Of a stretch of DNA of 32,000 nt, positions 4,354 to 22,093 are shown one piece after another. Made by a program: the position numbers and the translations under genes. How positions within the stretch are numbered: the first letter of the stretch is position 1; every line of letters starts with the position of its first letter. The stretch comes from Nostoc punctiforme PCC 73102 (GTDB lineage: Bacteria; Cyanobacteriota; Cyanobacteriia; Cyanobacteriales; Nostocaceae), in NCBI RefSeq assembly GCF_000020025.1, contig NC_010628.1, positions 4,290,001 through 4,322,000 on the forward strand. Reading direction: 5' to 3'. Below the pieces are notes generated by a model that worked only from the letters and a program-made list of their open reading frames with translations, ran no database searches and was not told where the DNA came from.

Positions 4354-7300
4354 TTATCTATATTGCGCTCTTGACTGTCTAGAAGCAGTGCGGCTCTCAG
4401 CACGCTCAGTGCTTTCCTCAAAAGAGGATATTTCAGTTGGTTTTTGTATTAAATATTTAGCTAATGAGTTGATGGTTGGATATTCAAATAGGTTAATTAC
4501 TGATATATCTGTGTGCAAAAGTTCTCGTAGTTTGGCGTGAATTTGCACAAGAAGTAATGAATGACCACCAAGATCGAAGAAGTTATCGTAAATGCCCACC
4601 TTTTCAACATGAAGCATCTGTTGCCAGATATTAGCAATAGTTTGCTCTATCTCAGTTTGTGGTGGCTCATAAGTTGCTGCCAATTCTGGGCGATCGCCAT
4701 TTGATTCTGGGAGTTCTCTACGGTTCACTTTGCCATTGGGTGTTAGTGGCAAAGCTTTTAACATAATGAAAGTTGCAGGCATCATGTATTCTGGCAGTTT
4801 CTCCCTCAGAAATCTATACAGTTCGCTAACACTGAGTGTTTGCTGTTGCTTAGGAACAACATAAGCCACCAAGGATTTGTTGCCAAACTCCTCTTCTCGG
4901 ATAGAAGCTACAGCCTGCTGCACTTGCGGGTGTTGACACAGTGTAGTTTCAATTTCTCCTAGTTCAATGCGGAAGCCTCTAATTTTTACTTGGTGATCGA
5001 CTCGTCCAAGAAACTCAATATTACCGTCGGGTAAGTAGCGGGCTAAGTCACCAGTTTTGTATAATCGTGAACCTGGCTTAGAAGCAATCAATCCCGTATC
5101 TGCAAAAGGATTGGGAATAAACTGTGCTGCTGTTAAATCAGATTGATTCAGATAACCCCTAGCTAATCCCGCACCGCCGATGTACAATTCACCCGGTACG
5201 CCAACGGGTACTGGTTGCAGTTGCTCATCCAGTAGATAAATCTGCGTATTGGCAAGTGGACGACCAAGGGGTACTGTCTGTGTATGATTAATTTGCTGCT
5301 CAACTGCGAAGGTAGTAACCCCCACCGTGGCTTCTGTAGGGCCATAGTGATTGAAGATTAAACTAGATGGTACTTGCTGCTGAATCTGTTCAATCAGTTG
5401 CCAATTTGCAGCTTCGCCACCCAGAATTAATTGCTGGCGGGGCAAGATGGAATCGGATGGTGCAGCAGCCAGAAGAGTGGCAAGGTGAGAAGGGACAATT
5501 TTCAGACAGTCGATAGGATGTGTGCGGCAGTATTTTGCCAAGGCTGCTGAGTCAGTAGCACACTCGGCAGACAACACATGCAGACATCCACCAGTGCAAA
5601 GCGCAGCAAAGATGCCAGTATTACCTAAGTCTGCGGCTAAGGTAGAAACAGTGGCAAAATTGGTTGTGGTTGATAAGTCTAACCTCTGGGTAATTCCGTT
5701 AAGGTAATTTAGAAGTTGTTGGTGTTCAATCGCTACTCCTTTTGGTTTACCAGTAGAGCCGGAGGTGAATAAAACATAAGCTAAATTCTCAGTCGTAACT
5801 TCACTGCTGAGATTTTCATCTTTGTGTTGAGCAATGGTATCCCAATCTGTGTCTAAGCAGACTATCTGTGCTGTATGCGTTGGTAGGGCATTTACTAATC
5901 GCTGTTGTGTCAAGATTACTGGTATTTGGGTATTCTGCAATCGGCCAGCAATTCCATCTTTGGTTAAAGTTGGATCTAGCGGTAAATAGGCTCCACCAGC
6001 TTTGAGGATGCCCAAAAGTCCAATAATCATCAATAGCGATCGCTCTGTGCAAAGCCCTACTAAAACTTCCGGCTTGACTCCTTGCTGCTGTAAATAGTCG
6101 GCAAGTTGATTGGCTTTGCTATTCAACTGTGCATAGGTTAATTGCTGGTTTTCAAAGACAACGGCAATTTTATTCGGTGTTTTTTGTACTTGTGCTTCAA
6201 ATAGTTGATGAATGCATTTATGTTGTATATTGTCAAGATATGTTTGGTTAAATTCGACTAACAATTGTTGGCGATCGCTTGGACTGAGAATCTCTAATTG
6301 GCTAATTTTCTCTTCTGGATGAGCAGTTACACTAGTTAATAAAGTTTGAAATTGTCTGGCTATGCGTTCAATAGCATCGGCTGAGAAATAATTGATATCG
6401 TAGTAAAATTCTGTAGTTAAATAATGCTGGCGTTGATTACAACTAAGTTTGATTTTAAACTGTTCAATACAACTGTAATATTGCTCCAGAGAAAATGATA
6501 CATCGCCAGCAACGAGTTCTTCTGGTAGCTGTTCAAACTCGAAACCGATGGGAAAAGCCAGTTGATGATTTTCTATTGGTTCTGGCACAAAATAATCTTG
6601 CCATTCTGCACTAGCTTCTATAGTCCGATCGGCTAGTTCTACAACTTCTTTAAAACGTAAATCTGATGTCAAATAAGTTTTAATTGGCAACCAAGTAGCA
6701 ACAAGTCCTAGTAAGTTATGTAGTTCTTCATAATCGCGGCGATCGCTAGCCATACCGATGATGATATCTGGCTGTCTTGTAAGTCGCCAAATCAGCGTTT
6801 GCCAGCAAGCTAGTAAAACGACAGCAACGGAAGTATTATACTTTTGAGCTAAAGTGGCAATCTCGACTTTTATGTTAGAGGTAATATCTAAGCGATAACA
6901 GTCTACTTCAAACTTAGATGGCTGTAATAGTTTGTTCTCAAAAGGTAACTTTAAAGAGGCAAGTGTCGAAATCTTTTGCTCATCCCAGTATTTCTTAGCT
7001 GATTCTGCATCTTCATCTTCGAGTAATTGATTCTGCCATTCAGAAAATTGTATATATTGTACAACTTCTTCTGATACTGTTTTTTCTTGGAAACAAACAG
7101 AATAGGAATTGCTGATTTCAGTTACCAAATTTTTTAGTGCCCATGCATCAGCACAAAGTGAAGGCAGACTGATAAGTAAAATGTACTTATTTACTGATAG
7201 CCTCAGTAGAGATACATGCAACAGTGATCCTTGCTCAAAATCGAGAGAAAGACTTCGTGCTTCTTGGAAAAAATATTCTATTTGCCTTGAGAGTTCTTTT

Positions 7301-7581
7301 GGTTCGCAATCACTCAGATCAATGTCACGCCACGATAGAATATTCCTGTTTCCTAAAACCATCACAGGAATTTTCATTCCAGGTAGGTAGTGAAAAGTTG
7401 TATGCAGAATCCCATGTCGAATAACGACTTGCTCTAAAGCAGCTTTTAATGCTTCTGGTTTGATATTACCTTCAATAAGAAGGGCACATTGAGTAAAGTA
7501 AGCTAAACTATGCTGCTGTAATGACCAAAGACGCTTTTGTTGAGGAGAAAGCCGAAAACCCTGAGTTATTTTATTTGGCAT
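4354..7581 (-). CDS. NRPS: non-catalytic C-like (interface-like) domain - A (Asp-type code) - T
   Basis: ORF track, 1075 aa. The N-terminal ~430 aa have C-superfamily architecture, but the HHxxxDG position reads SLPSLCAD. A-domain cores: FTSGSTGKPKG, NHYGPTE, YKTGDL, KIRGFRIELGEIE, PNGKVNR. T domain: FFDLGGHSLL (Ser1008). Confidence 0.95.
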   Translation of the reverse strand: MPNKITQGFRLSPQQKRLWSLQQHSLAYFTQCALLIEGNIKPEALKAALEQVVIRHGILHTTFHYLPGMKIPVMVLGNRNILSWRDIDLSDCEPKELSRQIEYFFQEARSLSLDFEQGSLLHVSLLRLSVNKYILLISLPSLCADAWALKNLVTEISNSYSVCFQEKTVSEEVVQYIQFSEWQNQLLEDEDAESAKKYWDEQKISTLASLKLPFENKLLQPSKFEVDCYRLDITSNIKVEIATLAQKYNTSVAVVLLACWQTLIWRLTRQPDIIIGMASDRRDYEELHNLLGLVATWLPIKTYLTSDLRFKEVVELADRTIEASAEWQDYFVPEPIENHQLAFPIGFEFEQLPEELVAGDVSFSLEQYYSCIEQFKIKLSCNQRQHYLTTEFYYDINYFSADAIERIARQFQTLLTSVTAHPEEKISQLEILSPSDRQQLLVEFNQTYLDNIQHKCIHQLFEAQVQKTPNKIAVVFENQQLTYAQLNSKANQLADYLQQQGVKPEVLVGLCTERSLLMIIGLLGILKAGGAYLPLDPTLTKDGIAGRLQNTQIPVILTQQRLVNALPTHTAQIVCLDTDWDTIAQHKDENLSSEVTTENLAYVLFTSGSTGKPKGVAIEHQQLLNYLNGITQRLDLSTTTNFATVSTLAADLGNTGIFAALCTGGCLHVLSAECATDSAALAKYCRTHPIDCLKIVPSHLATLLAAAPSDSILPRQQLILGGEAANWQLIEQIQQQVPSSLIFNHYGPTEATVGVTTFAVEQQINHTQTVPLGRPLANTQIYLLDEQLQPVPVGVPGELYIGGAGLARGYLNQSDLTAAQFIPNPFADTGLIASKPGSRLYKTGDLARYLPDGNIEFLGRVDHQVKIRGFRIELGEIETTLCQHPQVQQAVASIREEEFGNKSLVAYVVPKQQQTLSVSELYRFLREKLPEYMMPATFIMLKALPLTPNGKVNRRELPESNGDRPELAATYEPPQTEIEQTIANIWQQMLHVEKVGIYDNFFDLGGHSLLLVQIHAKLRELLHTDISVINLFEYPTINSLAKYLIQKPTEISSFEESTERAESRTASRQSRAQYR
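4717..6219 (-). other. Adenylation domain, hand-extracted specificity code DLTKIGHVGK (Asp-like)
   Basis: Aligned by eye to GrsA-PheA positions 235/236/239/278/299/301/322/330/331/517: D651 L652 T655 K694 I719 G721 H745 V753 G754 K951. The published Asp code is DLTKVGHIGK. Confidence 0.7.
6277..7563 (-). other. C-like domain lacking the catalytic His motif (interface-like domain), approximate borders
   Basis: aa ~7-435 of ORF 4354..7581. It starts GFRLSPQQKRLW. The HHxxxDG position is ISLPSLCADAW (aa 137-147, nt ~7141-7173). Paralog of 15737..17029. Confidence 0.7.
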
Positions 7582-7586: not shown

Positions 7587-8348
7587 CTACTCACTTAACG
7601 GTTTATGACAAACAAAGACGGCAGTATCAGACCCTCGTTCTACTCCCAAATCACGATTTATATCGTATATGGTAATTCCTGTAAATCCTACCTCTTCTAG
7701 AGCCGATTTAACCTCTGTTGTTGAATAAGCTTTTAAGAAAAAACTCCTATCCGATCGTTGCCAAAGACCATTTATTAATTGGAATCTAGTAGTATCTTTT
7801 CGACCAATTTTCTTTTCTGTATCGTAACTCCAAATATCTACCCAGACGTTATTATCTTTTACGCAACCACCAGTATCACTATTTTTCCAATCTAGTTCAC
7901 ACAATTCTTCCAGATACAATTCAAAGGCAAAGATACCATTTTCTAGCAGAGCATTATAAACATTTTGTAATGCATCTTTCAATTCCTCAATCCTGAGGAT
8001 ATAGTTGAGGACAACATCTGTCGAAATAGCTGCATAGAAAGTTGGTGGCAATTTAAAAAATCGGGCATCATCTAAAATAAATTTACCATCGGGTGCATTC
8101 TCCCTTGCAACCTTAAGCATTCCTTCAGAACTATCAAGTCCTGTTACTTGATACCCTCTTTTCAGTAATCGTTGTGCAATTTGCCCTGTACCGCAACCAA
8201 GGTCAAAAATGTGCGATCCTTTGGGAATATTTTTTAGAATTAATCTATCTATGCAATTTAATGTAATGTCATGATGCTCTAGACCTTTCAAGTCATACAT
8301 AGAAGCTATAGTATCATGATTGGTATTGCGTTGTTTGGAATACACCAT
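7587..8348 (-). CDS. Class I SAM-dependent methyltransferase (paralog of 29044..29790)
   Basis: ORF track 7587..8363 begins at a TTG that directly abuts the upstream stop. I prefer ATG 8348..8346, which is preceded by GAGGA (TTGAGGATAAACATTATG). SAM motif I is IFDLGCGTGQIAQRLL. Roughly half of positions are identical by eye to the other methyltransferase. Confidence 0.9.
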   Translation of the reverse strand: MVYSKQRNTNHDTIASMYDLKGLEHHDITLNCIDRLILKNIPKGSHIFDLGCGTGQIAQRLLKRGYQVTGLDSSEGMLKVARENAPDGKFILDDARFFKLPPTFYAAISTDVVLNYILRIEELKDALQNVYNALLENGIFAFELYLEELCELDWKNSDTGGCVKDNNVWVDIWSYDTEKKIGRKDTTRFQLINGLWQRSDRSFFLKAYSTTEVKSALEEVGFTGITIYDINRDLGVERGSDTAVFVCHKPLSE

Positions 8349-8363
8349 AATGTTTATCCTCAA

Positions 8364-11300
8364 TTATATTTCTTTAATCATTTCGCCCATTGCTACAACA
8401 ATTTTCCGAGAACCTACATAAGGATTCCGTCCGTGAGCAATTAGCATATTATCTAACATCAAAATATCACCTTGCTGCCAAGAAAAGCTCGTTTGACATT
8501 GCTGATAAACTTCATTAATTTCTGCAATAACTGAATCTTCTATAGGAGTACCATCTCCGTAATAAACATTACGCGGTAGCTGTTTATCTCCAAATGTAGA
8601 CAATAGAGATTCTCTAACTTCTGCGTCTAAATATGCTATATGGTGTAACTGAATTTGATTGAAAAATACAGACTCGCTAGTTTTTGGATGTACTGCCAAT
8701 GCTGGACGAACTTGGCGAGTAATTAGACTATTATTATACCATTCAAAATTAATTCTAGCTTGACGGCAATAATTTTCTACAACTAATTTGTCATTGCTAC
8801 GAAAGAAATTTTGCCAGCTTACATCCAGACCTTTGGTATAGTGACGGACGTACATTAATTGTTTTTGAGCTAATCTTTCTCTCAGTTTGGGATTGATTAT
8901 TTTGTAAGCTTTTCGACAGTCTATAATTGGTGTTTCTCCACCTTGTTGTGCTACTTGGATGCAGAAAAACCAAATTTTCAGAGGCCACTGATGTAAATGA
9001 GAACTTTCGTTATGAAAGAGAATAGCTTTTTTAGGCGGGTAAGGAGTAGAACCATAAACTTTACCACCCTCTCCAGTCCGGGGTAAATCACCATATTCAT
9101 CAAATAAGTCTGGAGAAATTACCTGGGCAAAATTTTCAAAATCTAATACTGATTCTATATTGAAGTCTCTAAACAAAATTGCGCCATGTTTTAACAATTC
9201 CTTGTCTAAAAATTCCTGATTCATTTTAGACCAAGCAATCAAATCAATATCGTTACTAGCAGGCTTAATTACTAGGGGAAATGTTTGTCCTGTTTGAAAG
9301 TAACAAGTTTCGACTAATTTTTCTGGCAACGAGCTAATAGCTTTAGGAGTAATGCCGATTAACTTCTCCTGATTAAATGCTTTACGCTCTCTTTTTTGCC
9401 TAACTTGTTGGTTTCTTTCAGCCTCAGTCAACATTTCTAAATTGCCAATCTGCACATCAGGTTGAGACACAATGCTGTTAAGCAGTGTCTGGAAGTGATT
9501 TGTCATCCGAGTGATGGTAGCAGCATCAAAAAGTTCGGCGTTATACTGCAACTTGCCCAAAATTCCCTGTTCTGTTTCTGTTAAAAATAGTGCTAAATCA
9601 AACCTAGCTATTTTGTTTTGAATTTCCAAGAAACTTAAGGTCAATCCTGGCAATTCTAAGGTTGGCATTGGGGCATTCTGAAGGACAAACAATACCTGAA
9701 ATAGTGGCGATGTATTACTCAAATTGCGCTCAGGTTGCAAAACCTCTACTAATTTCTCGAAGGGCAAATCTTGATGAGCATAAGCTCCTAATGCTACCTC
9801 GCGGACTCGCCCAAGTAACTCACGAAAACTGGGGTTTCCGCTCAAATCGGTGCGTAAGACCAGCAAATTGACAAAAAAGCCAATTAATGATTCGATTTCG
9901 GCTCGATTACGATTAGCAACATCAGTGCCAACAATGATGTCATCCTGCTGGGTATAAAGTTGTAGTAATATTTGAAACCCTGCCAGTAGGGTCATGAATA
10001 AAGTAGCACCCTCTTGGCGGGTAAGTGCTTGCAGTTGTTGAGATAGGTTAGAGGGAATGTTGAAGAATTGAGTTGCACAAGGACTAGTTTTAACTTCTGC
10101 CCGTGGGCGAACTGTAGGTAATTGCAGTATAGGAAGGTTGCTTCCTAATTGCTTTTTCCAGTAGCTAAGTTGAGCTTCTAGTACCTCCCCCTGCAACCAC
10201 TGTTTTTGCCAGATTGCAAAGTCTGCATACTGTATGGGTAGTTCTGAAAGCGGAGAAGGTTTTCCGGCACAAAATACCTCGTACAATGTTGCTAATTCTT
10301 GAACAAACACACCCATTGACCAGCCATCTGAGACAATATGATGGATTGTGAACAATACTATATGTTCTTGCTCGTGGATACGCAGGAGAGTACATCTTAG
10401 TAATGGCCCTTGCACTAGGTCAAAACACCGTTGCGATTCTTCTGTAATCAGTTGTTGAACAACAGCTTCCTTCTGTGCTTCTGGTAACTCCCGTAAGTCC
10501 ACTACTGGTATTTTGATAGTTAGACTGCAAGCGATCGCTTGAAATGGTTGTCCATTTACCATATAGAAGGTAGTACGCAACGCTTCATGACGACGGATTA
10601 TTTCCTGCAAACTCTGCTCCAGCACACCTAAATTTAGGGAACCAACGAGACGTAAACCAGATAGATCGTTGTAGGTTAAGCTGCCAGGATATAGTTGCTC
10701 TAGCAACCACAATCTAGCTTGAGCAAAAGATAGTGGTAAATTGCCATTTCGGGAAATGCGTGTGATGGCAGGAGTTTCTAGCTTTTGTTCCAGTCTCATC
10801 ACAATTTCAATCTGTTTAGCTAGGCTAGCGATAGTAGGTGATTCAAATAAGTGACGCAGGGGTAGTTCAAGGCAGAAAGCATCGCGCACGCGAGACATAA
10901 CTTGAGTGGCAAGTAAGGAATGTCCACCCAGTTCAAAAAAGTTGTCGTCAACTCCCACTTGCTCAACACCAAGAATTTGCTTCCAGATTCCGGCTAGGAC
11001 TTCCTCAACAGGATTACGCGGTGCCACAAAGACATGACCAAAATTGTCTGGCTCATGTTTTGGAAGCAACCGGATTTTCGGGATTTGATTGGCTGGAATT
11101 TTATCTAAAAGTGTTGCGATGTGTTGTTCTTCTGGAGCGGCAACTATGTTTTCAAGTAAGCCGATCAAATGGTCTTGAATGCAAGTAACGTCGGCTCTAT
11201 CGAAGCGACGTGTATCGTAGATCAGATCAAATCTGAGTTCTGAGTCTGGAACTACGAGCAACGTCAGGGCATATTTAGTTTGTGCCCCTTTAAAATGAGT

Positions 11301-12434
11301 CTGACTGATATTGATACTTAGAACTGATGATTGCTGTCTTGATATATCTGGAAAGTTCTCGAAAACTAGAAGACTTTCATAAAGAGACAAGGCTCCCGGA
11401 ACTTCACTCCATTGATGGATTTGACCAGTAGGGCTATATTCATACTGCTGAAGCTCTACATTATAGGTCTGGATGTCTTTGAGCCAAAACCAGAAAGATG
11501 CTCTAGGGGAAACCTTTACCCGTATGGGTAAGCTATTGATCAACATTCCAGTCATTGATTCAACCCCCTCTAAGTCTGACTGACGACCAGAGACGGTAAT
11601 GCCAAAAACGACATCTTCTTGCCGACTATAATGGCTCAAAAGCAATGCCCAAACTCCCTGAATAACCGTATTCAAAGTTAAGCGATATTGCTTTGCCAAA
11701 GATTGCAAGGTAGCTGTAGCAGGTGCTGATAAGTAAACTTTCTGTTCTCCGTAAATGTCTTCTGGGTCAGCGACACTTAGCGACTCTACTGTTGTTCCCA
11801 GTGGGGTTGGTCTGGTAAAACCCTGTAGAGTTTTGCGCCAGAATGCTTCTGGTTTGGACAAATCTTGTTTTTTCAGCCAAGCGATATAGTCTCTGTAGGG
11901 ACGAGGTTTTTCTAAATGTAGGTCTTGACCTTGACAGAACGCTTCGTAAAAGGCAAAGAATTCTTGGAAGATCGAAGAGACAGACCATCCATCCATCAAA
12001 ATATGGTGATGAGTGCAAATAAATTGATAATTTTCTTTACCCAAATGGATCAGAGCTAGGCGAATCAACGGTGCTTTGGAAAGGTTTATACCCTGATGAC
12101 GTTCTGCCTGAAGAAAAGCCTCTAGTTCTTCTTTGACTTGAGATGATGAAAACTGATGCCAGTCTAGTTGTTCAAGCGGTACTTTCACCTGTCGAAGTAC
12201 TACCTGAAGTGGCTCATCTTGTTCTTTCCAGATGAAACATGTTCTCAAGACTGAGTGGCGGTCTATAACCTGCTGCCATGCTCGCTCAAAGGCAGAAATA
12301 TCTAAATTTCCCTGAAAAACACCAGTCAATTGCTCAATATGGATGCCTGGCTCTGGAGAATACAGCGTCTCAAACAGCATACCTTGCTGTGGAGCCGAAA
12401 GGGGATAAATTGCTTCAATATTTTTCTTGTTCAT
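8364..12434 (-). CDS. NRPS with no adenylation domain: C - T - C - TauD/TfdA-type Fe(II)/2OG dioxygenase domain
   Basis: ORF track, 1356 aa. C1: IYPLSAPQQGMLFE, HHHILMDGWS (aa 142-151). T: FFELGGHSLLATQV (Ser506). C2: LSFAQARLWLL, HHIVSDGWS (aa 698-706). TauD: ILFRDF, FHNES (H1141/E1143), GGETPIID, AHGRNPY (H1334). No AMP-binding core motifs appear anywhere in the protein. Confidence 0.95.
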   Translation of the reverse strand: MNKKNIEAIYPLSAPQQGMLFETLYSPEPGIHIEQLTGVFQGNLDISAFERAWQQVIDRHSVLRTCFIWKEQDEPLQVVLRQVKVPLEQLDWHQFSSSQVKEELEAFLQAERHQGINLSKAPLIRLALIHLGKENYQFICTHHHILMDGWSVSSIFQEFFAFYEAFCQGQDLHLEKPRPYRDYIAWLKKQDLSKPEAFWRKTLQGFTRPTPLGTTVESLSVADPEDIYGEQKVYLSAPATATLQSLAKQYRLTLNTVIQGVWALLLSHYSRQEDVVFGITVSGRQSDLEGVESMTGMLINSLPIRVKVSPRASFWFWLKDIQTYNVELQQYEYSPTGQIHQWSEVPGALSLYESLLVFENFPDISRQQSSVLSINISQTHFKGAQTKYALTLLVVPDSELRFDLIYDTRRFDRADVTCIQDHLIGLLENIVAAPEEQHIATLLDKIPANQIPKIRLLPKHEPDNFGHVFVAPRNPVEEVLAGIWKQILGVEQVGVDDNFFELGGHSLLATQVMSRVRDAFCLELPLRHLFESPTIASLAKQIEIVMRLEQKLETPAITRISRNGNLPLSFAQARLWLLEQLYPGSLTYNDLSGLRLVGSLNLGVLEQSLQEIIRRHEALRTTFYMVNGQPFQAIACSLTIKIPVVDLRELPEAQKEAVVQQLITEESQRCFDLVQGPLLRCTLLRIHEQEHIVLFTIHHIVSDGWSMGVFVQELATLYEVFCAGKPSPLSELPIQYADFAIWQKQWLQGEVLEAQLSYWKKQLGSNLPILQLPTVRPRAEVKTSPCATQFFNIPSNLSQQLQALTRQEGATLFMTLLAGFQILLQLYTQQDDIIVGTDVANRNRAEIESLIGFFVNLLVLRTDLSGNPSFRELLGRVREVALGAYAHQDLPFEKLVEVLQPERNLSNTSPLFQVLFVLQNAPMPTLELPGLTLSFLEIQNKIARFDLALFLTETEQGILGKLQYNAELFDAATITRMTNHFQTLLNSIVSQPDVQIGNLEMLTEAERNQQVRQKRERKAFNQEKLIGITPKAISSLPEKLVETCYFQTGQTFPLVIKPASNDIDLIAWSKMNQEFLDKELLKHGAILFRDFNIESVLDFENFAQVISPDLFDEYGDLPRTGEGGKVYGSTPYPPKKAILFHNESSHLHQWPLKIWFFCIQVAQQGGETPIIDCRKAYKIINPKLRERLAQKQLMYVRHYTKGLDVSWQNFFRSNDKLVVENYCRQARINFEWYNNSLITRQVRPALAVHPKTSESVFFNQIQLHHIAYLDAEVRESLLSTFGDKQLPRNVYYGDGTPIEDSVIAEINEVYQQCQTSFSWQQGDILMLDNMLIAHGRNPYVGSRKIVVAMGEMIKEI
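8367..9317 (-). other. TauD-family dioxygenase domain fused to the NRPS C-terminus (approximate borders)
   Basis: aa ~1040-1356 of ORF 8364..12434. It aligns end to end with the free-standing TauD at 17085..18131. Shared blocks include GAILFR, KVY, QQGGETPI, LPRN.YYGDG..IEDSV, LLDN and VAMGEM. Confidence 0.85.
9435..10742 (-). other. Condensation domain C2 (LCL-like), paralog of the free-standing C protein at 18155..19741
   Basis: aa ~565-1000. Both C domains share HHIVSDGWS, ELPIQYADFAIWQKQWL, DVANRNR and GNPSFRELLGRVR. Confidence 0.85.
10800..11027 (-). other. Thiolation (PCP) domain with no cognate cis A domain
   Basis: aa ~470-545: PRNPVEEVLAGIWKQILGVEQVGVDDNFFELGGHSLLATQVMSRV. It lies only ~30 aa after the end of C1. 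Confidence 0.85.
11115..12416 (-). other. Condensation domain C1, probably DCL-type (it follows an E-domain protein)
   Basis: aa ~7-440. The N-terminus MNKKNIEAIYPLSAPQQGMLFE resembles the YxLTPMQEGMLFH starts of Bacillus C domains that follow E domains. HHHILMDGWS is intact. Confidence 0.7.
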
Positions 12435-12445
12435 TTTATCCTCAC

Positions 12446-15400
12446 TTAAGAAAAGTCTATTTCAGCAAAAGCCTTTTCTAATTTTTCTTGGCTTAGTTCA
12501 ACATCAGGAAAGTCAGAAGGAGTATAGCCAAATGCATCAGGAGACTGACTACGGACAATAAGAGCCCGCAGCACTTCTACACAACCTTGAGCTAAACCCT
12601 CAATTGTGGCCCGTTGATAAATGTTTTTGCTGTATATCCAATCTATTTGCAGCCGACCACCCATAACAAAGCCAATACACTCCAGCAAATGGCTCATGCT
12701 TCCTCGTGGACTGCGGTTTAGTCCGGGTATCAAGTGGGATAATCGAAACTCAGAATTTTCAGGGATAATTCGATCTAACTGACCCAAGTAGTTGAAAATA
12801 ACTTGAGCTTGAGGAAGGGCTTGTAGTTGCTCAACTATTTCTACATCCTCGCTCATATAGCGCAGTACGCCATAGCCAATGCCCTGGTTGGGAATTTTGC
12901 GAAGCTGTTCCTTGACTGATTTTAAGGTATTTTCTGGATAGATTTCCTCACCCAGTTCTAAGACAACTGGGAAGATGGTTGTGAACCAACCTACGGTGAG
13001 CGATAGATCCATATCGTCGAATATATCTTCTCGCCCGTGACCCTCTAAGTCAATTAATAGCGATCGCGAAGCGTCTCCTGTGGAGATTCGCTCTCCATTC
13101 CATTGTGCCAAAGTTTGTGCAACTGCTGTTATTAACAGGTCATTGATTTGGGTTAGATAAACCTGAGGAAGTTCTTGGAGCAATGCTTTAGTTTCTTCTG
13201 CACTGAGTTTGACTGATACAGTTTCGGCAGAAGCCATCAGGTTGTCCCCTCGCTCATTATCCATTGGCAGAGAAGAAATATATTTCCGCGATTCTGAGAG
13301 CCAATAAGGTAATTCTTGCTTTAGTTCTGCTGACTGCGCGTATTGCTCTAGTCGTTGCGACCACCGTTGAAACGAAGTAGTTTTTAGTGGAAGCTTAATT
13401 GCTTCACCCTGAGAAAGCTGTTGACAAAGTGTATATAGAGCGTCCAACAAAATTCGCCAAGAGACACCATCAACTACCAAGTGGTGCATAACAACCAACA
13501 TTCGGGCTGACTTTTGCACACCCAGTTCAAAAAAGGCCACCTTCAAAAGCGGCCCAGAGGATAGGTTCAGGCTCGCCTGTACTGTTTCTGTTGCTTCTTC
13601 AATGGCAGATTCTTGTTTTTCTGATGACAGCGCCGACAAATCCAGTCTGATAAAAGATAAAACTTCGTCTGGGCTAGCGTTGAACTGTTGCCAACCAGAT
13701 TCCGTCTGCATAAAACGCAGGCGGAGCGCATCATGGTGTATAAGCAATTGCTGTAGCGCCTGCTCTACGATTGATGGGTCGAGTTCTTGATTCACTTCCA
13801 GTTGGATTGACTGGTTCCAGTGGTGCGAATCAGGCTGATTTTGTGCTAGAAACCACGATTGGATGGGTGTCAGGGGTAATGAACCAACGATCGCTTCCTG
13901 TTGCGCTTGGATTGTGGGAGTGTTTCCCGCCACTGCGGCTAATTCAGCAATCGTTTGGCGATCGAAAATTTGACTGGTAGTTAGCTGTATACCAGTCTGC
14001 TTGGCTTTGGCGATCGCCTGAATGCTGAGAATAGAATCTCCGCCTAAGTCGAAGAAGTTGTCGTAAACGCCCACTCGATCGACACCAAGTACCTGACTCC
14101 AGATTTGGGCTAATATTTCCTCAACAGCAGTGCGCGGTGCAGCGTAAGTTGCTTCCAGTTCGGGTCTGGTTGTGTCTGGTGCTGGCAGTGCGCGTCGATC
14201 TACTTTGCCATTAGAAGTTAATGGTAGTGCCTTCAGGGATATCAAGGCTGAGGGCATCATGTATTCAGGTAGCTTCTGTTTGAGGAAACTTCGCAGATCG
14301 CTAAGGGAGGGTGACTCATGGTTCCAAACAATGTATGCCACTAAACGCTGGTTGCCTGGAACATCCTGCCGCGCTATCACTACTGTTTCTTGTACTCCCG
14401 AATACTCAGAGAGTACAGACTCAATTTCCCCTAGCTCAATGCGGAAGCCTCGAATCTTCACCTGGTCATCGCAACGTCCCAGGAACTCTAGCGTTCCATC
14501 TGGTCGGTAACGAACTAGGTCGCCAGTTTTATAAAGACGTTCCCCAGGTTCATTAGTGAAAGGGTTGGGGACAAATTTTTCTGCGGTCAGTTCAGGGCGA
14601 TTTAGATAGCCTCGGGCTACTCCCAAACCGCCAATGTATAGTTCACCCACCATCCCAATGGGGACTAACTGACAGTGCGGGTTAAGTACATACAGCTTGG
14701 TATTGGCAATTGGCTGACCAATTGGCACCGACCCTGATAGCTGTTCGCTACTTGGAACTTTATAAATGCAGCATCCCACAACTGTTTCTGTGGGGCCATA
14801 CTCATTGACAAGCATGGTGTCAGGAGCAGCCTTTTGCCAAAAGCTAATGCTGTTAACTAATAAATTTTCACCCCCAATAATGAAAGCCCTAGTTCGTCCA
14901 CTAGCTTCTTTTGGTGATATTTGCTGGTTGAGCAATTCCAGATGAACAGGTGTAATTTTAACCAGGCTTAAGTTGGAGTGGTGAAGTAGCGAGTTGCTTA
15001 GGGTTTCGATGCCCTGATCTTCCGGCAACAAGTCTACCCGACACCCTACCAGTAAGGGTGAAAACAGACTAGTTATTGTCAGGTCAAATGCTAAAGAAGA
15101 GTGAACTAGCGTCCCGTCTCCTTGCTCGACTGCGTAAGCTTGCGTACACCAGTTCAGATAATTTACCAAACCTTGATGGGGAATTAACGTCCCTTTGGGT
15201 TTACCAGTGGAGCCGGAGGTGTAGATGACGTAAGCTAGATTGAGAGCAGTTGTCTGACTGACTGGGTTTTCTGGACATTCGTTAGCGATAACTTCCCAGT
15301 CGGTATCTAGGCAAATGACTTTGATTCCCTCTGTTGGAATTTCGGCTACTAAACTTTGTTGGGTAAGCAGCACAAGAGCCTGAGTATCCCCAAGAATGAA

Positions 15401-17041
15401 GGCTTGGCGTTCCTTGGGATAGATGGGATCGATGGGAACATAAGCTCCACCTGCTTTGAGGATACCTAAGACTCCGATGACCATTTCTAGAGACCTCTCT
15501 ACGCAAATGCCCACTAGCACTTCGGAACCAACTCCCAGTTTTTGTAAGTAGTGAGCTAGCTGATTGGCGCGAGCATTGAGTTCGGCGTAGGTTAGTTGCT
15601 GGGTTTGAAATCTGACAGCGATGTTTTCGGGTGTGCGATCGCTCTGTAACTCAAACCAATGGTGGATGCACTGGTAGGGTAAAATAGTGGTTTGACTATT
15701 GTTAAATTCGGCTAAAAGTTGCTGACGCTCGATAGGACTGATAATGTCGAAAGTAGCGATCGCACCTCCGGGATTTTTAACCACACTGGTTAACAATGTC
15801 TCAAATTGATTCGCCAGACGCTGAATGTCTTCTAAAGCCAAAACATTCGCATCGTAGTGAAATTCAGCAGCTATACTATCATTCCGACTAACACAGGTTA
15901 GTTTGACCTGAAACTTATCAACACAAGTGTACTGTTGATAAATTGAAAAGTAGACATCGCCAGCAAAATGTTTAGCCGAGAGAGATTCAAAATCGAAACA
16001 GAATGGGAAGAATAACTGCTCTAGACTATTACCCGATTCAACACTTTTTTCCCAAGAAAAACTTTCTTGCCATTCAGATATTTCCTTTATAGTTTCTGCA
16101 ACCTGAACCAAGAGATTGTTGAACTTGTAGCTATCTTCGAGATGACACCGAAGAGGTAAATATTTAACAATTAGTCCCAACGATTCTTGTAATTCTTCAT
16201 AGCTGCGACCATCATTAACTGTACCAATAACTATGTCTGATTGTTCGGTGAGCCGCCATAGCAGAATTTGCCAGCAAGTTATAAAAAATACATCTTTATT
16301 AATTTTTTTACCGTGAGTAATGGCATTTATTTTTGCTACTAAATCAGGCGCAATTTCCCTACTAAACCATTTGGGTTCAAATTTTGAGTTCTCAGTTTGC
16401 TGATTTGCAAAAGGAAGCCGCAAGCCACTAAGACTAGAAATATCTAGCTTTCCCCAGTAATCTGTTTCTAATTCCACATCTCCTGCTTTCAGCAATTCAT
16501 TTTGCCATTCAGCAATCTCGGCATATTGTAAAGGTTGCTCAATAACTGTTTCGCCCCGTAAGCAAGCCGCGTAGCATTTGCTCAGTTCACAAACTAAATT
16601 ATTCAGGGTAGGTGAATCCGCACACAAAGCAGGCAAACTGACAAGTAATAAATGCTTTTTTGGTGAGAGAGTAGTGAAGGTTGTTTGCAAAAGTGGCCCT
16701 TTCTCCCAATCGAAACTTTGCTGAATTCCTGATTGAAACAGCTTCTCTATCTCTAATCCTAAAGCCTCTTTGTTTTCCCAAGAATATTCACTTAATGATA
16801 GGAGGGTAGGCTCATTAATTACCTGAATGGGAATTTTTATCCCACGGGTCTGATGAAAAGTCGTCCGGAGAATTTCATACCGATTTACTACTTGGTGTAA
16901 AGCTGCTTTTAAAATCTCCAGTTGCAAATTCCCTTCCAGGAGGATAGCACCATATACTTGATAATATTGACTGTCTTTTTGTAATAACCACAATCGCTTT
17001 TGTTGCGGTGAAAGTTGAAATCCGTGAATTTGTTTTTGCAT
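12446..17041 (-). CDS. NRPS: non-catalytic C-like (interface-like) domain - A (Asn/Asp-type code) - T - E
   Basis: ORF track, 1531 aa. The N-terminal C-like domain has VSLPALCADSP where HHxxxDG is expected. A cores: YTSGSTGKPKG, NEYGPTE, YKTGDL, KIRGFRIELGEIE, SNGKVDR. T: FFDLGGDSILSIQ (Ser1003, the GGDSI form typical upstream of E domains). E: LPLTPIQSWF, HHLVVDGVSWRIL (aa 1186-1198). Confidence 0.95.
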   Translation of the reverse strand: MQKQIHGFQLSPQQKRLWLLQKDSQYYQVYGAILLEGNLQLEILKAALHQVVNRYEILRTTFHQTRGIKIPIQVINEPTLLSLSEYSWENKEALGLEIEKLFQSGIQQSFDWEKGPLLQTTFTTLSPKKHLLLVSLPALCADSPTLNNLVCELSKCYAACLRGETVIEQPLQYAEIAEWQNELLKAGDVELETDYWGKLDISSLSGLRLPFANQQTENSKFEPKWFSREIAPDLVAKINAITHGKKINKDVFFITCWQILLWRLTEQSDIVIGTVNDGRSYEELQESLGLIVKYLPLRCHLEDSYKFNNLLVQVAETIKEISEWQESFSWEKSVESGNSLEQLFFPFCFDFESLSAKHFAGDVYFSIYQQYTCVDKFQVKLTCVSRNDSIAAEFHYDANVLALEDIQRLANQFETLLTSVVKNPGGAIATFDIISPIERQQLLAEFNNSQTTILPYQCIHHWFELQSDRTPENIAVRFQTQQLTYAELNARANQLAHYLQKLGVGSEVLVGICVERSLEMVIGVLGILKAGGAYVPIDPIYPKERQAFILGDTQALVLLTQQSLVAEIPTEGIKVICLDTDWEVIANECPENPVSQTTALNLAYVIYTSGSTGKPKGTLIPHQGLVNYLNWCTQAYAVEQGDGTLVHSSLAFDLTITSLFSPLLVGCRVDLLPEDQGIETLSNSLLHHSNLSLVKITPVHLELLNQQISPKEASGRTRAFIIGGENLLVNSISFWQKAAPDTMLVNEYGPTETVVGCCIYKVPSSEQLSGSVPIGQPIANTKLYVLNPHCQLVPIGMVGELYIGGLGVARGYLNRPELTAEKFVPNPFTNEPGERLYKTGDLVRYRPDGTLEFLGRCDDQVKIRGFRIELGEIESVLSEYSGVQETVVIARQDVPGNQRLVAYIVWNHESPSLSDLRSFLKQKLPEYMMPSALISLKALPLTSNGKVDRRALPAPDTTRPELEATYAAPRTAVEEILAQIWSQVLGVDRVGVYDNFFDLGGDSILSIQAIAKAKQTGIQLTTSQIFDRQTIAELAAVAGNTPTIQAQQEAIVGSLPLTPIQSWFLAQNQPDSHHWNQSIQLEVNQELDPSIVEQALQQLLIHHDALRLRFMQTESGWQQFNASPDEVLSFIRLDLSALSSEKQESAIEEATETVQASLNLSSGPLLKVAFFELGVQKSARMLVVMHHLVVDGVSWRILLDALYTLCQQLSQGEAIKLPLKTTSFQRWSQRLEQYAQSAELKQELPYWLSESRKYISSLPMDNERGDNLMASAETVSVKLSAEETKALLQELPQVYLTQINDLLITAVAQTLAQWNGERISTGDASRSLLIDLEGHGREDIFDDMDLSLTVGWFTTIFPVVLELGEEIYPENTLKSVKEQLRKIPNQGIGYGVLRYMSEDVEIVEQLQALPQAQVIFNYLGQLDRIIPENSEFRLSHLIPGLNRSPRGSMSHLLECIGFVMGGRLQIDWIYSKNIYQRATIEGLAQGCVEVLRALIVRSQSPDAFGYTPSDFPDVELSQEKLEKAFAEIDFS
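12542..13888 (-). other. Epimerization domain (approximate borders)
   Basis: aa ~1052-1500: PLTPIQSWF, HHLVVDGVSW, EGHGRE, FNYLGQ. The C-terminal tail TPSDFPDVELSQEKLEKAFAEIDFS looks like a COM-type donor helix. Confidence 0.85.
14177..15679 (-). other. Adenylation domain, hand-extracted specificity code DLTKIGEVGK (Asn/Asp hybrid)
   Basis: D653 L654 T657 K695 I721 G723 E747 V755 G756 K946, aligned by eye to GrsA-PheA. L236 is typical of Asp codes (DLTKVGHIGK). E322/V330 are typical of Asn codes (DATKVGEVGK). Confidence 0.65.
15737..17029 (-). other. C-like domain lacking the catalytic His motif (interface-like domain), approximate borders
   Basis: aa ~5-435 of ORF 12446..17041. It starts GFQLSPQQKRLW. 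The HHxxxDG position is SLPALCAD (aa 135-142, nt 16616-16639). Confidence 0.7.
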
Positions 17042-17084: not shown

Positions 17085-18131
17085 TTAGACATCTTCAAAG
17101 TTGGCCATTTCGCCCATTGCAACTAAGAGTTGCCTTTCTCCCATATATGAATTCCTACTATGAGCAGTTAATAGATTATCTAGTAGTAATAAATCTCCCC
17201 TTTTCCAAGGAAAGCTAACTTCTAATTGCTGATAGACTCCACAAATTTCTTCCAGTACCGAATCTTCAATAAGAGAGCCATCTCCGTAATAGCAATTTCG
17301 TGGTAAATCCTCTTGTTTAAACATTGATAAAAGGGACTCACGAGTTTGTGAATCTAAACAAGCTGGATGCCAATGTTGCGCTTGATTAAACCAAGACATT
17401 TCCTTAGTTTGAGGATGTTTGACAACTGCTGGACGAACAGCAATTGTCCTCAGTCGATTGCCTGTTTTCCATTCAAAATCAATTGCCGCTTTTGTACATG
17501 CAGCTTCTACTTCTAAGCGATCGCTAGTCTGAAAAACTGTTTCCCAATTCAATCCTAATCTATCCCCGTAGTTTCGGATATACATAACTTTCTTATCAAT
17601 AAATCGCTCTCTAATTTTAGGATCGATTAGCTGAAAAACTATCCGACTATCAACTATTGGTGTTTCTCCTCCCTGCTGTGCAGGCTGAAGACAACCAAAC
17701 AATATTTTTCTTGGCCAAGAATAATTAAATGAATTTTCGTTATGCCACAAGAGCTTTTTATCAGCAGGGTAAGATACTGGAGTATAAACTTTACCACTAA
17801 CACTTTTCCGGGGATGTTCCCCATTCTCATTAAACAAGTCTGAGCAAAGAGCCAAGCAAACTCGCTCAAATGTTGTTGCGGTGTCTACATTGAATCCTCG
17901 GAATAATATCGCACCATATTTTAGTAATTTTGTTTCTATAAAATTTTGGCTGCTCTCAATCCAATCGGCTAAATCAAGATAGTCAATATTAGGTTTTAGG
18001 ACGATCGGAAGTGTTTCCCAATGGGTGAGAAAATCTATCTTGATAAATTCTGTTTCTGACAAGTTAATTGTCTTTCGTCGCACTGTCTCTAATTTTATAG
18101 AGCTAGATTTTTTATTTTCTAATTTTTTCAT
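17085..18131 (-). CDS. Free-standing TauD/TfdA-family Fe(II)/2OG dioxygenase, putative T-domain-dependent Asx beta-hydroxylase
   Basis: ORF track, 348 aa. Motifs: AILFRGF, WHNENS (H130/E132), QQGGETPIVD, TAHSRNSY (H324). Roughly half of positions are identical by eye to the TauD domain at 8367..9317. It sits directly upstream of the Asx NRPS. Confidence 0.9.
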   Translation of the reverse strand: MKKLENKKSSSIKLETVRRKTINLSETEFIKIDFLTHWETLPIVLKPNIDYLDLADWIESSQNFIETKLLKYGAILFRGFNVDTATTFERVCLALCSDLFNENGEHPRKSVSGKVYTPVSYPADKKLLWHNENSFNYSWPRKILFGCLQPAQQGGETPIVDSRIVFQLIDPKIRERFIDKKVMYIRNYGDRLGLNWETVFQTSDRLEVEAACTKAAIDFEWKTGNRLRTIAVRPAVVKHPQTKEMSWFNQAQHWHPACLDSQTRESLLSMFKQEDLPRNCYYGDGSLIEDSVLEEICGVYQQLEVSFPWKRGDLLLLDNLLTAHSRNSYMGERQLLVAMGEMANFEDV

Positions 18132-18154
18132 AAAAACTAATTTGTTAACTCTTT

Positions 18155-20866: not shown

Positions 20867-20870
20867 GTGT

Positions 20871-22055: not shown

Positions 22056-22093
22056 CACATCAATGAGGTAGATAAATACCGTCAATTTTTGGT

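What the first reader, a model, noticed from the sequence alone, without database searches (positions are those of the whole stretch)
10800..12434. A-less NRPS module: C-T with no adenylation domain
ORF 8364..12434 begins with an intact C domain (HHHILMDGWS). About 30 aa later comes a T domain (FFELGGHSLL, Ser506). None of the AMP-binding core motifs (SGSTG.PKG, YGPTE, YKTGD, KIRG.RIELGEIE) occurs anywhere in the protein. The upstream protein ends in an E domain with a COM-like tail (..SQEKLEKAFAEIDFS). This protein starts MNKKNIEAIYPLS.., so the chain is expected to arrive here and be condensed onto whatever occupies this T domain.

The T domain must be loaded in trans. Candidates are:
- one of the two Asx A domains acting twice;
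- an A domain outside the window;
- the FkbH cassette delivering a glycerate-derived unit. This last option is speculative.

If the occupant were a hydroxy acid, C1 would form an ester.
Basis: partly seen in the sequence, partly recalled or inferred. Interest (0 to 1): 0.7.

Follow-up and report, generated by a model that had tools for sequence, protein, structure and literature searches.

The report
NRPS module lacking its adenylation domain
A peptide-assembly-line protein of Nostoc punctiforme really does contain a condensation–carrier module with no amino-acid-activating domain; about 70 relatives share this conserved design, so it looks functional, but how its carrier is loaded is unknown, and modules of this kind are already known elsewhere.

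Summary
ORF 8364..12434 (minus strand, 1356 aa, 100% identical to a Nostoc punctiforme protein) reads C–T–C–TauD. Ser506 is the carrier serine. No adenylation domain is found by Pfam, by motif search in six frames or by tblastn.

It is not a local defect. About 75 homologues (47–90% identity) share the architecture. They keep HHxxxD in both C domains, and 74 of 75 keep the carrier Ser. Their first C domains form one clade. That clade is sister to A-containing C–A(mostly Gly)–T–C–TauD proteins, the cyanochelin CcsJK type.

The second half (C–TauD) is the front of a split β-hydroxy-Asp module. The next NRPS protein starts with a His-less "interface" domain followed by an Asp-specific A–T.

Most likely the A-less carrier is aminoacylated in trans by an A domain of the same assembly line. 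An Asx A domain used twice is the leading guess. No loader could be identified.

The FkbH idea is disfavoured. The cassette has its own ACP, sits behind a PKS module, and is missing near most A-less relatives.

An unloaded relay module is not excluded.

Verdict: a new member of a known kind; moderate interest.

The parts
8364..12434 (-). Whole NRPS gene, 1356 aa: C1 - T - C2 - TauD. It is 100% identical to a Nostoc punctiforme 'condensation domain-containing protein'.
11115..12434 (-). C1, a DCL-type condensation domain (aa 1 to about 440) with HHILMDG at aa 143-149. Its N-terminus MNKKNIEAIYPLS follows a Shine-Dalgarno-like GAGGA.
   Evidence: Pfam. Best solved matches are C domains of PvdL, McyB, SrfA-C, TycB and bacitracin synthetase 3. 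Motif positions; gene junction. H143, H144, D148 and G149 are invariant in 33 homologues.
11028..11114 (-). C1-T linker (aa 441-469). It carries the family-conserved motif IPxxQIPxIR (aa 446-455). No A-domain remnant is detectable.
   Evidence: Alignment of the linkers and a linker HMM that finds nothing in A-containing relatives. The AlphaFold model gives mean pLDDT 89 for aa 441-450, 77 for aa 451-460 and 49 for aa 461-470.
10800..11027 (-). A-less carrier (T/PCP) domain, aa 470-545. The phosphopantetheine-attachment Ser506 is at codon 10917-10919.
   Evidence: PF00550, E 2.4e-16. Ser position. G504, H505 and S506 are invariant in 33 homologues, and 74 of 75 homologues keep the Ser.
9408..10745 (-). 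C2, an intact condensation domain (HHIVSDG at aa 698). It is of the type that precedes a TauD hydroxylase and an interface-A-T protein.
   Evidence: C2 is 57-59% identical to the stand-alone C (18155-19741) and to the C of the upstream FAAL-ACP-C protein.
8391..9251 (-). Fused TauD-type Fe(II)/2-oxoglutarate hydroxylase domain (aa 1062-1348). The putative metal ligands H1141, E1143 and H1334 are invariant.
   Evidence: PF02668, E 2.8e-46; invariant columns
12446..17041 (-). Upstream NRPS protein: interface domain (no HHxxxDG) - A (DLTKIGEVCK, Asn-like) - T - E, with a COM-type C-terminal tail. It donates the chain to C1.
4354..7581 (-). Downstream NRPS protein: interface domain (LPSLCADA in place of HHxxxDG) - A (DLTKIGHVGK, Asp) - T. 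It is the acceptor for C2 and the presumed substrate carrier for the fused TauD.
7587..8363 (-). SAM-dependent methyltransferase gene between the C2-TauD gene and the Asp module. The same placement occurs in A-containing relatives L016, L017 and L020 and in A-less L090, so it is not specific to A-less clusters.
17085..19741 (-). Stand-alone C (18155-19741, HHIITDG) and stand-alone TauD (17085-18131). Together they form the front half of the preceding split beta-hydroxy-Asx module.
   Evidence: The arrangement matches ccsH1/2, ccsH2/2 and ccsI of cyanochelin C.
19796..23405 (-). FkbH cassette: 3-hydroxyacyl-CoA dehydrogenase (22539-23405), an 83-aa ACP (22094-22345), acyl-CoA dehydrogenase (20871-22085) and FkbH (19796-20866). 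It is self-contained and associated with the PKS module, so it is not the likely loader of Ser506.

Best explanation
Window 10800-12434 (minus strand) encodes a genuine NRPS elongation module that has every part except its adenylation domain: a DCL-type condensation domain and a carrier domain.

It is fused to the front half (C2-TauD) of a split beta-hydroxy-aspartate module. The cluster is a FAAL-primed, cyanochelin-like PKS/NRPS cluster of Nostoc punctiforme.

Proposed path:
1. The upstream protein (interface-A(Asn-like)-T-E) delivers a D-configured chain to C1 through its COM-type tail.
2. Ser506 of the A-less carrier bears phosphopantetheine. A separate A domain of the same assembly line, used twice, charges it with an amino acid in trans. 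An Asx-specific A domain is the leading guess. The ancestral residue at this position was most often Gly.
3. C1 forms the peptide bond.
4. C2 hands the chain to Asp on the next protein (interface-A(Asp)-T). The fused TauD hydroxylates that Asp.

Shown: the domain order, the absence of an A domain, the conservation of catalytic residues, and the family context.

Inferred: trans-aminoacylation, the identity of the loader, and all the chemistry.
For: - Architecture and absence of an A domain.
- C1 is an ordinary DCL domain. Its best solved matches are PvdL, McyB, SrfA-C and TycB.
- About 75 homologues at 47-90% identity share C-T-C(-TauD). H143, H144, D148, G149, G504, H505, S506, H698, H699 and D703 are invariant in the 33-sequence alignment. 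Of the 75, 74 keep the carrier Ser, and every sequence inspected keeps HHxxxD.
- C1 of 74 of the 75 A-less proteins forms one clade. It is sister to 59 A-containing DCL-A-T-C-TauD proteins. About 30 of the 53 sister A domains that gave a specificity code are Gly-type.
- Only one position discriminates the two C1 clades, and none does so in T or C2. The domains therefore look unchanged, as expected if they still do ordinary condensation chemistry.
- The downstream partner is always interface-A-T, and almost always Asp-specific. The interface domains carry LPxxxAD in place of HHxxxDG.
- This matches cyanochelin ccsJK (Gly module + C + TauD) followed by ccsL. It also matches CcsFGH followed by CcsI.
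- In L009, the three A domains visible around the A-less module are all Asx-type.
- No stand-alone A domain, shuttle hydrolase or other accessory gene recurs near A-less loci.
- Precedent: module 2 of the pandorachelin synthetase lacks an A domain yet adds Thr. It is proposed to be loaded by the A domain of module 1 (PMC13592322).
Against: - No loader was identified.
- The specificity of the upstream A domain differs between A-less clusters: Asn-like, Ser, Thr, Gly-like and others. 'Upstream A used twice' would therefore give a different residue in each cluster.
- A Gly-specific A domain is present in only some A-less clusters.
- T-domain similarity does not point to any partner: 44-53% to all the NRPS carrier domains and the PKS ACP of the cluster, 25% to the FAAL-associated ACP.
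- The Nostoc punctiforme cluster continues beyond the DNA I could fetch. Another KS follows the Thr module, so its full set of A domains is unknown.
- No product is known for any cluster with this architecture in the literature I could search.
- Conservation of C1 and Ser506 is also compatible with a relay function.
Confidence: 0.55

Rival explanations
1. Relay or skipped module. The carrier is never aminoacylated. The chain is moved from the upstream carrier onto the free thiol of the Ser506 phosphopantetheine. This transfer could be spontaneous or assisted by C1. C2 then passes the chain on, so no residue is added.
For: - No loader or accessory gene is found in the window or recurs within 10 kb in 14 A-less loci.
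- The architecture is independent of the specificity of the neighbouring A domains.
- This model would still keep both Ser506 and the C1 active site under selection.
- From my own knowledge: module skipping that needs the skipped carrier was proposed for myxochromide S.
Against: - C1 and T show essentially no clade-specific changes relative to A-containing sisters that do ordinary condensation. There is one discriminating position in C1 and none in T.
- Keeping 545 residues over such divergence merely as a relay seems costly.
- The documented A-less module in pandorachelin does add a residue.
Confidence: 0.18
2. The carrier is loaded by a stand-alone or external adenylating enzyme encoded outside the 49 kb examined. 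That enzyme could lie further along the cluster or elsewhere in the genome. It may be Gly-specific, which would restore the ancestral residue.
For: - The sister proteins mostly carry a Gly A domain at this position.
- T and C2 are unchanged relative to those sisters.
- The cluster continues beyond the fetched DNA.
- From my own knowledge: trans-acting A domains are known, for example in WS9326A, and HMWP2 loads HMWP1 in yersiniabactin synthesis.
Against: - No stand-alone A or A-T gene lies within 10 kb in any of 14 A-less loci.
- L009 and L011 appear to end shortly after the Asp module.
Confidence: 0.15
3. The FkbH cassette puts a glycerate-derived unit on Ser506, and C1 forms an ester.
For: - An FkbH cassette lies 7 kb upstream in the window. 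It also occurs next to A-less proteins in L008, L071 and L088.
- Both PKS AT domains in the window carry the malonyl-type HAFH motif, so the user of the cassette's product is not obvious from motifs alone.
Against: - The cassette has its own ACP at 22094-22345, plus both oxidoreductases of the hydroxymalonyl-ACP pathway.
- It always follows a KS-AT-ACP module whose AT has the unusual GYSIGE motif: the window, L071 and L087. In L088 that module is fused to an FkbM methyltransferase.
- It occurs in L087, where the next module has its own A domain.
- It is not seen within 10 kb of A-less proteins in L009, L010, L037, L041, L043, L044, L048, L049, L089 or L090.
Confidence: 0.03
4. Assembly error, frameshift or recent pseudogene. 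On this view the A domain was lost by accident and the module is dead.
For: Another part of the same cluster is decayed. The FkbM methyltransferase domain after KS-AT-ACP is interrupted by a stop and a frameshift.
Against: - The ORF is uninterrupted.
- The same architecture is found in about 75 independent sequences from many genera, with all catalytic motifs conserved.
- One C1 clade implies an old, maintained state.
Confidence: 0.02

Closest known systems
Cyanochelin synthetase CcsJK followed by CcsL (cyanochelins A and C); CcsFGH followed by CcsI (cyanochelin B)
   Same: - A C domain and a TauD hydroxylase are fused at the C-terminus of one NRPS protein. An Asp-activating module on the next protein follows.
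- A-containing homologues of the window protein (about 1860 aa, C-A(Gly)-T-C-TauD) are 60-74% identical to it over T-C2-TauD.
- The cluster also has the stand-alone C + stand-alone TauD + Asp-module arrangement described for ccsH1/2, ccsH2/2 and ccsI.
   Different: - CcsJK has its own Gly-specific A domain; the window protein has none.
- The Nostoc punctiforme cluster has three hydroxylase sets, two PKS modules with aminotransferases and an FkbH cassette.
- Its product is unknown.
Interface domain and siderophore aspartyl beta-hydroxylases (Reitz et al. 2019; profiles now in antiSMASH 8)
   Same: - The N-terminal C-like domains of the three Asx modules lack HHxxxDG and carry LPxxxAD instead. 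Each follows a TauD-type hydroxylase, either fused or stand-alone.
- antiSMASH 8 lists such interface and beta-hydroxylase domains as module parts.
   Different: - I could not read the 2019 paper, so the definition of the interface domain rests on my memory and.
- Two of the three A domains here have Asn-like rather than Asp codes.
Pandorachelin synthetase, module 2 (C-T without A)
   Same: An A-less elongation module in a lipopeptide siderophore NRPS that also contains a TauD domain. It is conserved in all producer strains. The product contains the extra residue, and loading by the neighbouring A domain is proposed.
   Different: - It is proteobacterial.
- The proposed loader is the preceding module's A domain, and the text read does not say whether the two modules lie on one protein.
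- In Nostoc punctiforme every candidate A domain is on a different protein.
Trans- or iteratively loaded carriers: yersiniabactin HMWP1 PCP loaded by the HMWP2 A domain; SyrE module 9 (C-T) loaded via SyrB1/SyrC; T-C repeats of fungal ferrichrome synthetases (own knowledge, not checked here)
   Same: Carrier domains without a cognate A domain are charged by an A domain elsewhere in the system, or through an aminoacyl shuttle.
   Different: - No shuttle enzyme (SyrC/CmaE type) and no A-T loader is present in the window.
- No experimental link to any A domain exists.
FkbH-dependent (hydroxy/methoxy)malonyl-ACP extender-unit cassettes, such as FK520 fkbGHIJK and zwittermicin zmaDEGN (own knowledge)
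   Same: FkbH (TIGR01686, E 1e-86), a discrete ACP, a 3-hydroxyacyl-CoA dehydrogenase and an acyl-CoA dehydrogenase are clustered together.
   Different: This applies to the neighbouring cassette, not to the finding. Nothing links the cassette to Ser506.

Membership tests
NRPS condensation domain, DCL subtype (C1) | Catalytic HHxxxDG motif and Condensation-family fold | tested here: met
   HHILMDG at aa 143. Pfam Condensation hit. The AlphaFold model has mean pLDDT 85.5. The motif is invariant in homologues.
NRPS condensation domain, DCL subtype (C1) | Placed directly after an epimerisation domain, and most similar to C domains that accept D-configured donors | tested here: met
   The upstream protein ends in an E domain. 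Best solved matches include SrfA-C, TycB and McyB C domains. Assigning those as D-donor-accepting (DCL) C domains is from my own knowledge. In 14 A-less loci the preceding gene ends A-T-E.
NRPS condensation domain, DCL subtype (C1) | Selectivity for a D-configured donor in catalysis | not testable with these tools
   Needs enzymology.
Carrier (T/PCP) domain | PP-binding profile above threshold and GGxS serine | tested here: met
   PF00550 scores 60.2 bits against a cutoff of 20.8. LGGHSL with Ser506. The Ser is kept in 74 of 75 homologues.
A-less NRPS module loaded in trans | No adenylation domain in the module | tested here: met
   the linker is only about 30 aa
A-less NRPS module loaded in trans | The module is maintained as functional, with catalytic residues conserved across divergent homologues | tested here: met
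A-less NRPS module loaded in trans | An identifiable loader: an A domain used twice, a stand-alone A, or a shuttle enzyme | tested here: inconclusive
   No dedicated loader in the window or in 14 related loci. In-line A domains are candidates but cannot be discriminated.
A-less NRPS module loaded in trans | The product contains a residue contributed by the A-less module | not testable with these tools
   No product is known. The literature searches found none.
Split beta-hydroxy-Asp module (C-TauD, then interface-A(Asp)-T), cyanochelin/Reitz type | TauD-type hydroxylase fused after a C domain at the C-terminus of an NRPS protein, with the HxD/E...H metal ligands | tested here: met
   PF02668 at aa 1062-1348. 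H1141, E1143 and H1334 are invariant.
Split beta-hydroxy-Asp module (C-TauD, then interface-A(Asp)-T), cyanochelin/Reitz type | The next NRPS protein begins with a C-like interface domain lacking the catalytic His motif, followed by an Asp-specific A domain | tested here: met
   LPSLCADA replaces HHxxxDG. The specificity code is DLTKIGHVGK.
Split beta-hydroxy-Asp module (C-TauD, then interface-A(Asp)-T), cyanochelin/Reitz type | Hydroxylation of carrier-bound Asp | not testable with these tools
   Needs biochemistry or a product structure.
CcsJK-type protein (C-A(Gly)-T-C-TauD) | An in-line A domain between the first C and the T | tested here: not met
   The A domain is absent. The protein belongs to the sister clade of the A-containing proteins.
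FkbH-loaded carrier | The FkbH cassette lacks its own ACP, or co-occurs consistently with the A-less carrier | tested here: not met
   The cassette has its own ACP. It is seen near only 4 of about 15 A-less loci, and also next to an A-containing module.

The most novel reading that the evidence does not exclude
The C1-T pair is an adenylation-independent relay. On this reading the DCL-type C domain moves the D-configured chain onto the bare phosphopantetheine thiol of Ser506 (a transthiolation). No residue is added, and the unit has been kept as a conserved spacer between two hydroxy-Asx modules.

That would be a catalytic role not described for condensation domains.

It would also explain why no loader is found in any of the related clusters.
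Probability: 0.1. Interest if true: 0.75.

Novelty: new member of a known kind. Interest (0 to 1): 0.38.

Why it matters
Cyanochelin-type beta-hydroxy-aspartate siderophores are a recently recognised and widespread cyanobacterial class. Structures are predicted from A-domain specificities.

About half of the closest relatives of this protein lack the A domain at the spacer position. For these clusters, genome-based structure prediction is blind at one residue and may miscount residues.

Identifying the loader, or showing that the module is a relay, would fix those predictions for dozens of orphan clusters. It would also add a defined case of cross-protein carrier loading in a split-module assembly line.

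The practical gain is limited. A-less modules and iterative A domains are already known, so the result would refine rather than change current understanding.

Tried and rejected
1. Linker as A-domain remnant. I thought the linker (IPANQIPKIRLLPKHEPD) might be a remnant of the A10 motif or the A-T linker. An HMM of 33 A-less linkers found nothing better than E about 0.5 in 32 A-containing relatives. Idea dropped.

2. Carrier similarity as a clue to the loader. The A-less T is 44-53% identical to all the NRPS carrier domains and the PKS ACP of the cluster, and 25% identical to the FAAL-associated ACP. Uninformative.

3. Clade-specific residues in C1, T or C2 that could indicate a changed function. 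Only Y352 versus F was found in C1, and nothing in T or C2.

4. Accessory genes enriched near A-less loci. None was found.

5. Co-inheritance of the upstream E domain with C1-T. E domains upstream of A-less modules are not monophyletic.

6. Walking further along the Nostoc punctiforme cluster.
   - The exact-protein look-up failed for the window protein itself and for the glycosyltransferase ORF as I delimited it.
   - A homology search with the next KS returned only partial or foreign proteins.
   - The best of those sits in an unrelated cluster.
   - The end of the cluster is therefore unknown.

7. Literature. Galica et al. 2021 and Reitz et al. 2019 are not held. Searches for a product of this cluster, or for this architecture, found nothing.

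8. A first attempt at trees timed out. It was repeated with a faster distance calculation. These are neighbour-joining trees without support values.

Full report
**Where the window comes from and what it holds**

The 1356-aa product of ORF 8364..12434 (minus strand) is 100% identical to a Nostoc punctiforme protein from an 8.23-Mb contig. A source names it 'condensation domain-containing protein'.

All large ORFs of the window lie on the minus strand. In the order of transcription they encode (Pfam):
- a glycosyltransferase
- TauD (30005-30898)
- a methyltransferase
- a class-III aminotransferase
- KS-AT-ACP (24187-27444)
- 3-hydroxyacyl-CoA dehydrogenase
- an 83-aa ACP (22094-22345)
- acyl-CoA dehydrogenase
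- FkbH (TIGR01686)
- a stand-alone C domain (18155-19741)
- a stand-alone TauD (17085-18131)
- C-like-A-T-E (12446-17041)
- the target
- a methyltransferase (7587-8363)
- C-like-A-T (4354-7581)
- KS-AT (1414-4320)
- the start of an ACP-aminotransferase-C-A-T gene that runs off the window

Contigs from other read sets extend the cluster.
- Upstream lie FAAL-ACP-C, TauD, C-like-A-T and the complete glycosyltransferase.
- Downstream lie ACP-aminotransferase-C-A(Thr)-T and a further KS.

**Check of the observation**

The target is C (aa 1 to about 440), T (Pfam aa 479-541), C (aa 564-1009) and TauD (aa 1062-1348). No AMP-binding hit appears at E<=0.01, whereas both neighbouring NRPS proteins give AMP-binding at E 1e-75 and 1e-81 in the same search.

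Ser506 is at codon 10917-10919.

No A-domain core motif occurs in any of the six frames of 8300-12500. tblastn with Asp, Thr, Gly and FAAL adenylation queries finds only the two known A domains of the window.

An AlphaFold model of aa 1-575 (mean pLDDT 85.5) shows a complete C fold, a short linker and a helical carrier domain, with no room for a hidden domain.

The upstream protein ends with an E domain (HHLVVDG, TIGR01720) and the tail TPSDFPDVELSQEKLEKAFAEIDFS. The target starts 11 nt later, behind a GAGGA ribosome-binding site.

**The rest of the protein and its neighbours**

The N-terminal C-like domains of the three Asx modules have LPxxxAD where HHxxxDG should be. They are 42-45% identical to each other but only 18-28% identical to the true C domains.

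The three intact C domains that precede them are 57-59% identical to each other. These are C2 of the target, the stand-alone C, and the C of FAAL-ACP-C. Each of the three is followed by a TauD, fused or stand-alone.

This is the split beta-hydroxy-Asp arrangement reported for cyanochelins.
- In cyanochelin C, ccsH1/2 (C), ccsH2/2 (TauD) and ccsI make one beta-OH-Asp module. ccsJK holds a Gly module plus a C domain and TauD, which work with the next protein ccsL.
- In cyanochelin B, the NRPS-fused hydroxylase of CcsFGH precedes the Asp module CcsI.
- antiSMASH 8 now carries profiles for such 'interface' domains and siderophore beta-hydroxylases.

The specificity codes are:

| A domain | Code | Reading |
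|---|---|---|
| Upstream, outside the window | DLTKIGEVGK | Asn-like |
| 12446-17041 | DLTKIGEVCK | Asn-like |
| 4354-7581 | DLTKIGHVGK | Asp |
| Downstream, outside the window | DFWNIGMVHK | Thr |

The target is therefore an A-less module (C1-T) fused to the front half (C2-TauD) of the next, split module.

**Is the A-less state an accident?**

No. The protein search returned dozens of cyanobacterial C-T-C-TauD proteins of about 1350 aa at 48-90% identity. It also returned versions of about 1860 aa with an A domain, and C-T-C versions of about 1040 aa without TauD.

In 33 A-less homologues the following are invariant:
- the catalytic residues of C1 (H143, H144, D148, G149)
- the carrier motif (G504, H505, S506)
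- the C2 motif (H698, H699, D703)
- the TauD ligands (H1141, E1143, H1334)

In a wider set of 75 A-less proteins, all those inspected keep HHxxxD and 74 keep the Ser. One metagenomic sequence has Phe instead.

In a neighbour-joining tree, C1 of 74 of the 75 A-less proteins forms a single clade. It is sister to 59 A-containing proteins with a DCL-type first domain. In the T-C2 tree, A-less and A-containing proteins are intermixed.

About 30 of the 53 sister A domains that gave a code are Gly-type (DIL..[LM]IWK). The A-less form thus looks like an old, maintained derivative of a CcsJK-type protein that lost its A domain, most often a Gly one.

The linker carries a family-specific motif, IPxxQIPxIR, which the model places at high confidence against C1. 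It shows no detectable similarity to A domains.

**Genomic context of relatives**

One scan of species-representative genomes gave 80 loci. I annotated them by BLAST against a domain library made from this cluster. Three more loci came from exact-protein look-ups.

In all 14 A-less loci with readable flanks, the preceding gene ends A-T-E and the following gene is interface-A-T.
- The downstream A domain is almost always Asp (DLTKIGHVGK).
- The upstream A domain varies: Asn-like, Ser, Thr, Gly-like and others.

No stand-alone A domain, A-T didomain, shuttle hydrolase or other ORF family recurs near A-less loci.

In L009, the three A domains visible around the A-less module are Asp, Asn and Asp.

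**The FkbH idea**

- The cassette is complete and has its own ACP.
- It lies directly after a KS-AT-ACP module in the window, in L071 and in L088. Where the AT active site could be read (the window and L087) it has the unusual motif GYSIGE. The partial AT in L071 is the same type (72% identical).
- In L088 that module carries a fused FkbM-type methyltransferase.
- It also occurs in L087, where the next NRPS module has its own A domain.
- It is not seen within 10 kb of the A-less gene in ten other loci.

The cassette therefore most likely feeds the PKS module, not Ser506.

**Mechanism**

The best-supported reading is an ordinary elongation module whose carrier is charged in trans.

C1 and T are indistinguishable from their A-containing sisters. 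One discriminating position is found in C1 and none in T or C2. This fits unchanged condensation chemistry.

Because no dedicated loader is seen, an in-line A domain used twice is the simplest source. A direct precedent exists in another TauD-containing lipopeptide siderophore: pandorachelin module 2 lacks an A domain, the product contains the residue, and the A domain of module 1 is proposed to load both carriers.

Which A domain acts here cannot be decided from sequence.
- Carrier similarity is uninformative.
- The near-constant downstream Asp domain is one candidate.
- The variable upstream domain is the other.

I put 0.55 on trans-aminoacylation by a cluster A domain. Within that, about two thirds goes to an Asx-type domain.

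Rivals:
- a relay or skipped module that adds no residue (0.18)
- a loader encoded outside the DNA I could examine (0.15)
- FkbH-derived loading (0.03)
- artefact or pseudogene (0.02, effectively refuted)

**Comparison with what is known, and novelty**

A-less modules and iterative or trans-acting A domains are established. Pandorachelin is documented. Yersiniabactin, syringomycin and fungal ferrichrome synthetases are from my own knowledge.

The C-TauD plus interface-A-T logic is also established.

What is not described in the literature I could search is this conserved A-less version of the CcsJK-type protein, or any product of a cluster containing it.

I file it as a new member of a known kind. 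It fails one defining feature of CcsJK proper, the in-line A domain, so it should not be called a CcsJK orthologue.

Interest is moderate (0.38). The feature is real, widespread and blocks structure prediction for many orphan siderophore-like clusters. A specialist would not find the existence of an A-less module surprising.

**Limits**

- The trees are neighbour-joining without support values.
- Domain labels in related loci come from best BLAST hits to this cluster's domains.
They were checked only by recovering DAWTIAAICK for that fragment.
- The definition of the interface domain rests on memory.
- The far end of the Nostoc punctiforme cluster was not recovered.

Noticed in passing
window 23513-24189 (minus strand): The FkbM-type methyltransferase domain is fused in frame to KS-AT-ACP in Chroococcidiopsis (L088). 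Here it is cut off by the stop codon at 24187-24189 and then shifts frame near 23950-23995. It looks like a decayed domain, or a sequencing error.
   Followed up: partly
window 4354-7581 and 12446-17041 (minus strand); L004 5414-8674: All three Asx modules start with a C-like domain that has LPxxxAD instead of HHxxxDG (interface-type). Each is preceded by an intact C domain plus a TauD. The cluster therefore has three hydroxylase sets, and two of the three A domains have Asn-like rather than Asp codes.
   Followed up: partly
window 24187-27444 (minus strand); L071 1-1827; L087 17906-23992: The AT domain of the PKS module next to the FkbH cassette has GYSIGE instead of GHSxGE. It still has the malonyl-type HAFH motif. 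This AT type co-occurs with FkbH cassettes in three clusters. It may be the AT that takes the cassette's ACP-bound extender unit.
   Followed up: partly
window 30005-30898 (minus strand): A third, shorter TauD-family gene (297 aa) sits next to a glycosyltransferase and a methyltransferase, not next to an interface-A-T protein. Its weak NCBIfam matches are to amino-acid beta-hydroxylases (GntD, VioC). Its substrate is unknown.
   Followed up: no
L048 2-3865: In Microseira sp. BLCC-F43 the module before the A-less protein has a Gly-type code (DILALGLIWK) yet ends in an E domain. That is odd for an achiral residue.
   Followed up: no
L014 2928-9038, L019 3012-9014, L022 3025-9012, L072 3960-9998, L041 715-6699: Several related clusters have a PKS module (KS-AT-carrier) that ends in an E-like domain directly before a DCL-type C domain.
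   Followed up: no
L043 11556-15707: A C-T-C-TauD protein without an A domain also occurs in a Thermoanaerobaculia (Acidobacteriota) MAG. Its C1 falls outside the cyanobacterial A-less clade, so this may be an independent loss or a distant transfer. Other hits come from Pyrinomonadaceae, Nitrospira, Sorangium and betaproteobacteria, mostly with A domains.
   Followed up: partly
L037 9989-13123, L041 11285-14410, L044 11300-14446, L049 11285-14425: A subfamily has C-T-C without the fused TauD. Its second C domain has HHIISDL instead of HHxxxDG. In L041, L044 and L049 no TauD is visible nearby, although the next protein still starts with a His-less C-like domain.
   Followed up: no
window 1-1169 (minus strand): The 5' part of an ACP-aminotransferase-C-A(Thr)-T gene runs off the start of the window. 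The PKS module KS-AT (1414-4320) is therefore split from its ACP, which sits on the next protein.
   Followed up: yes
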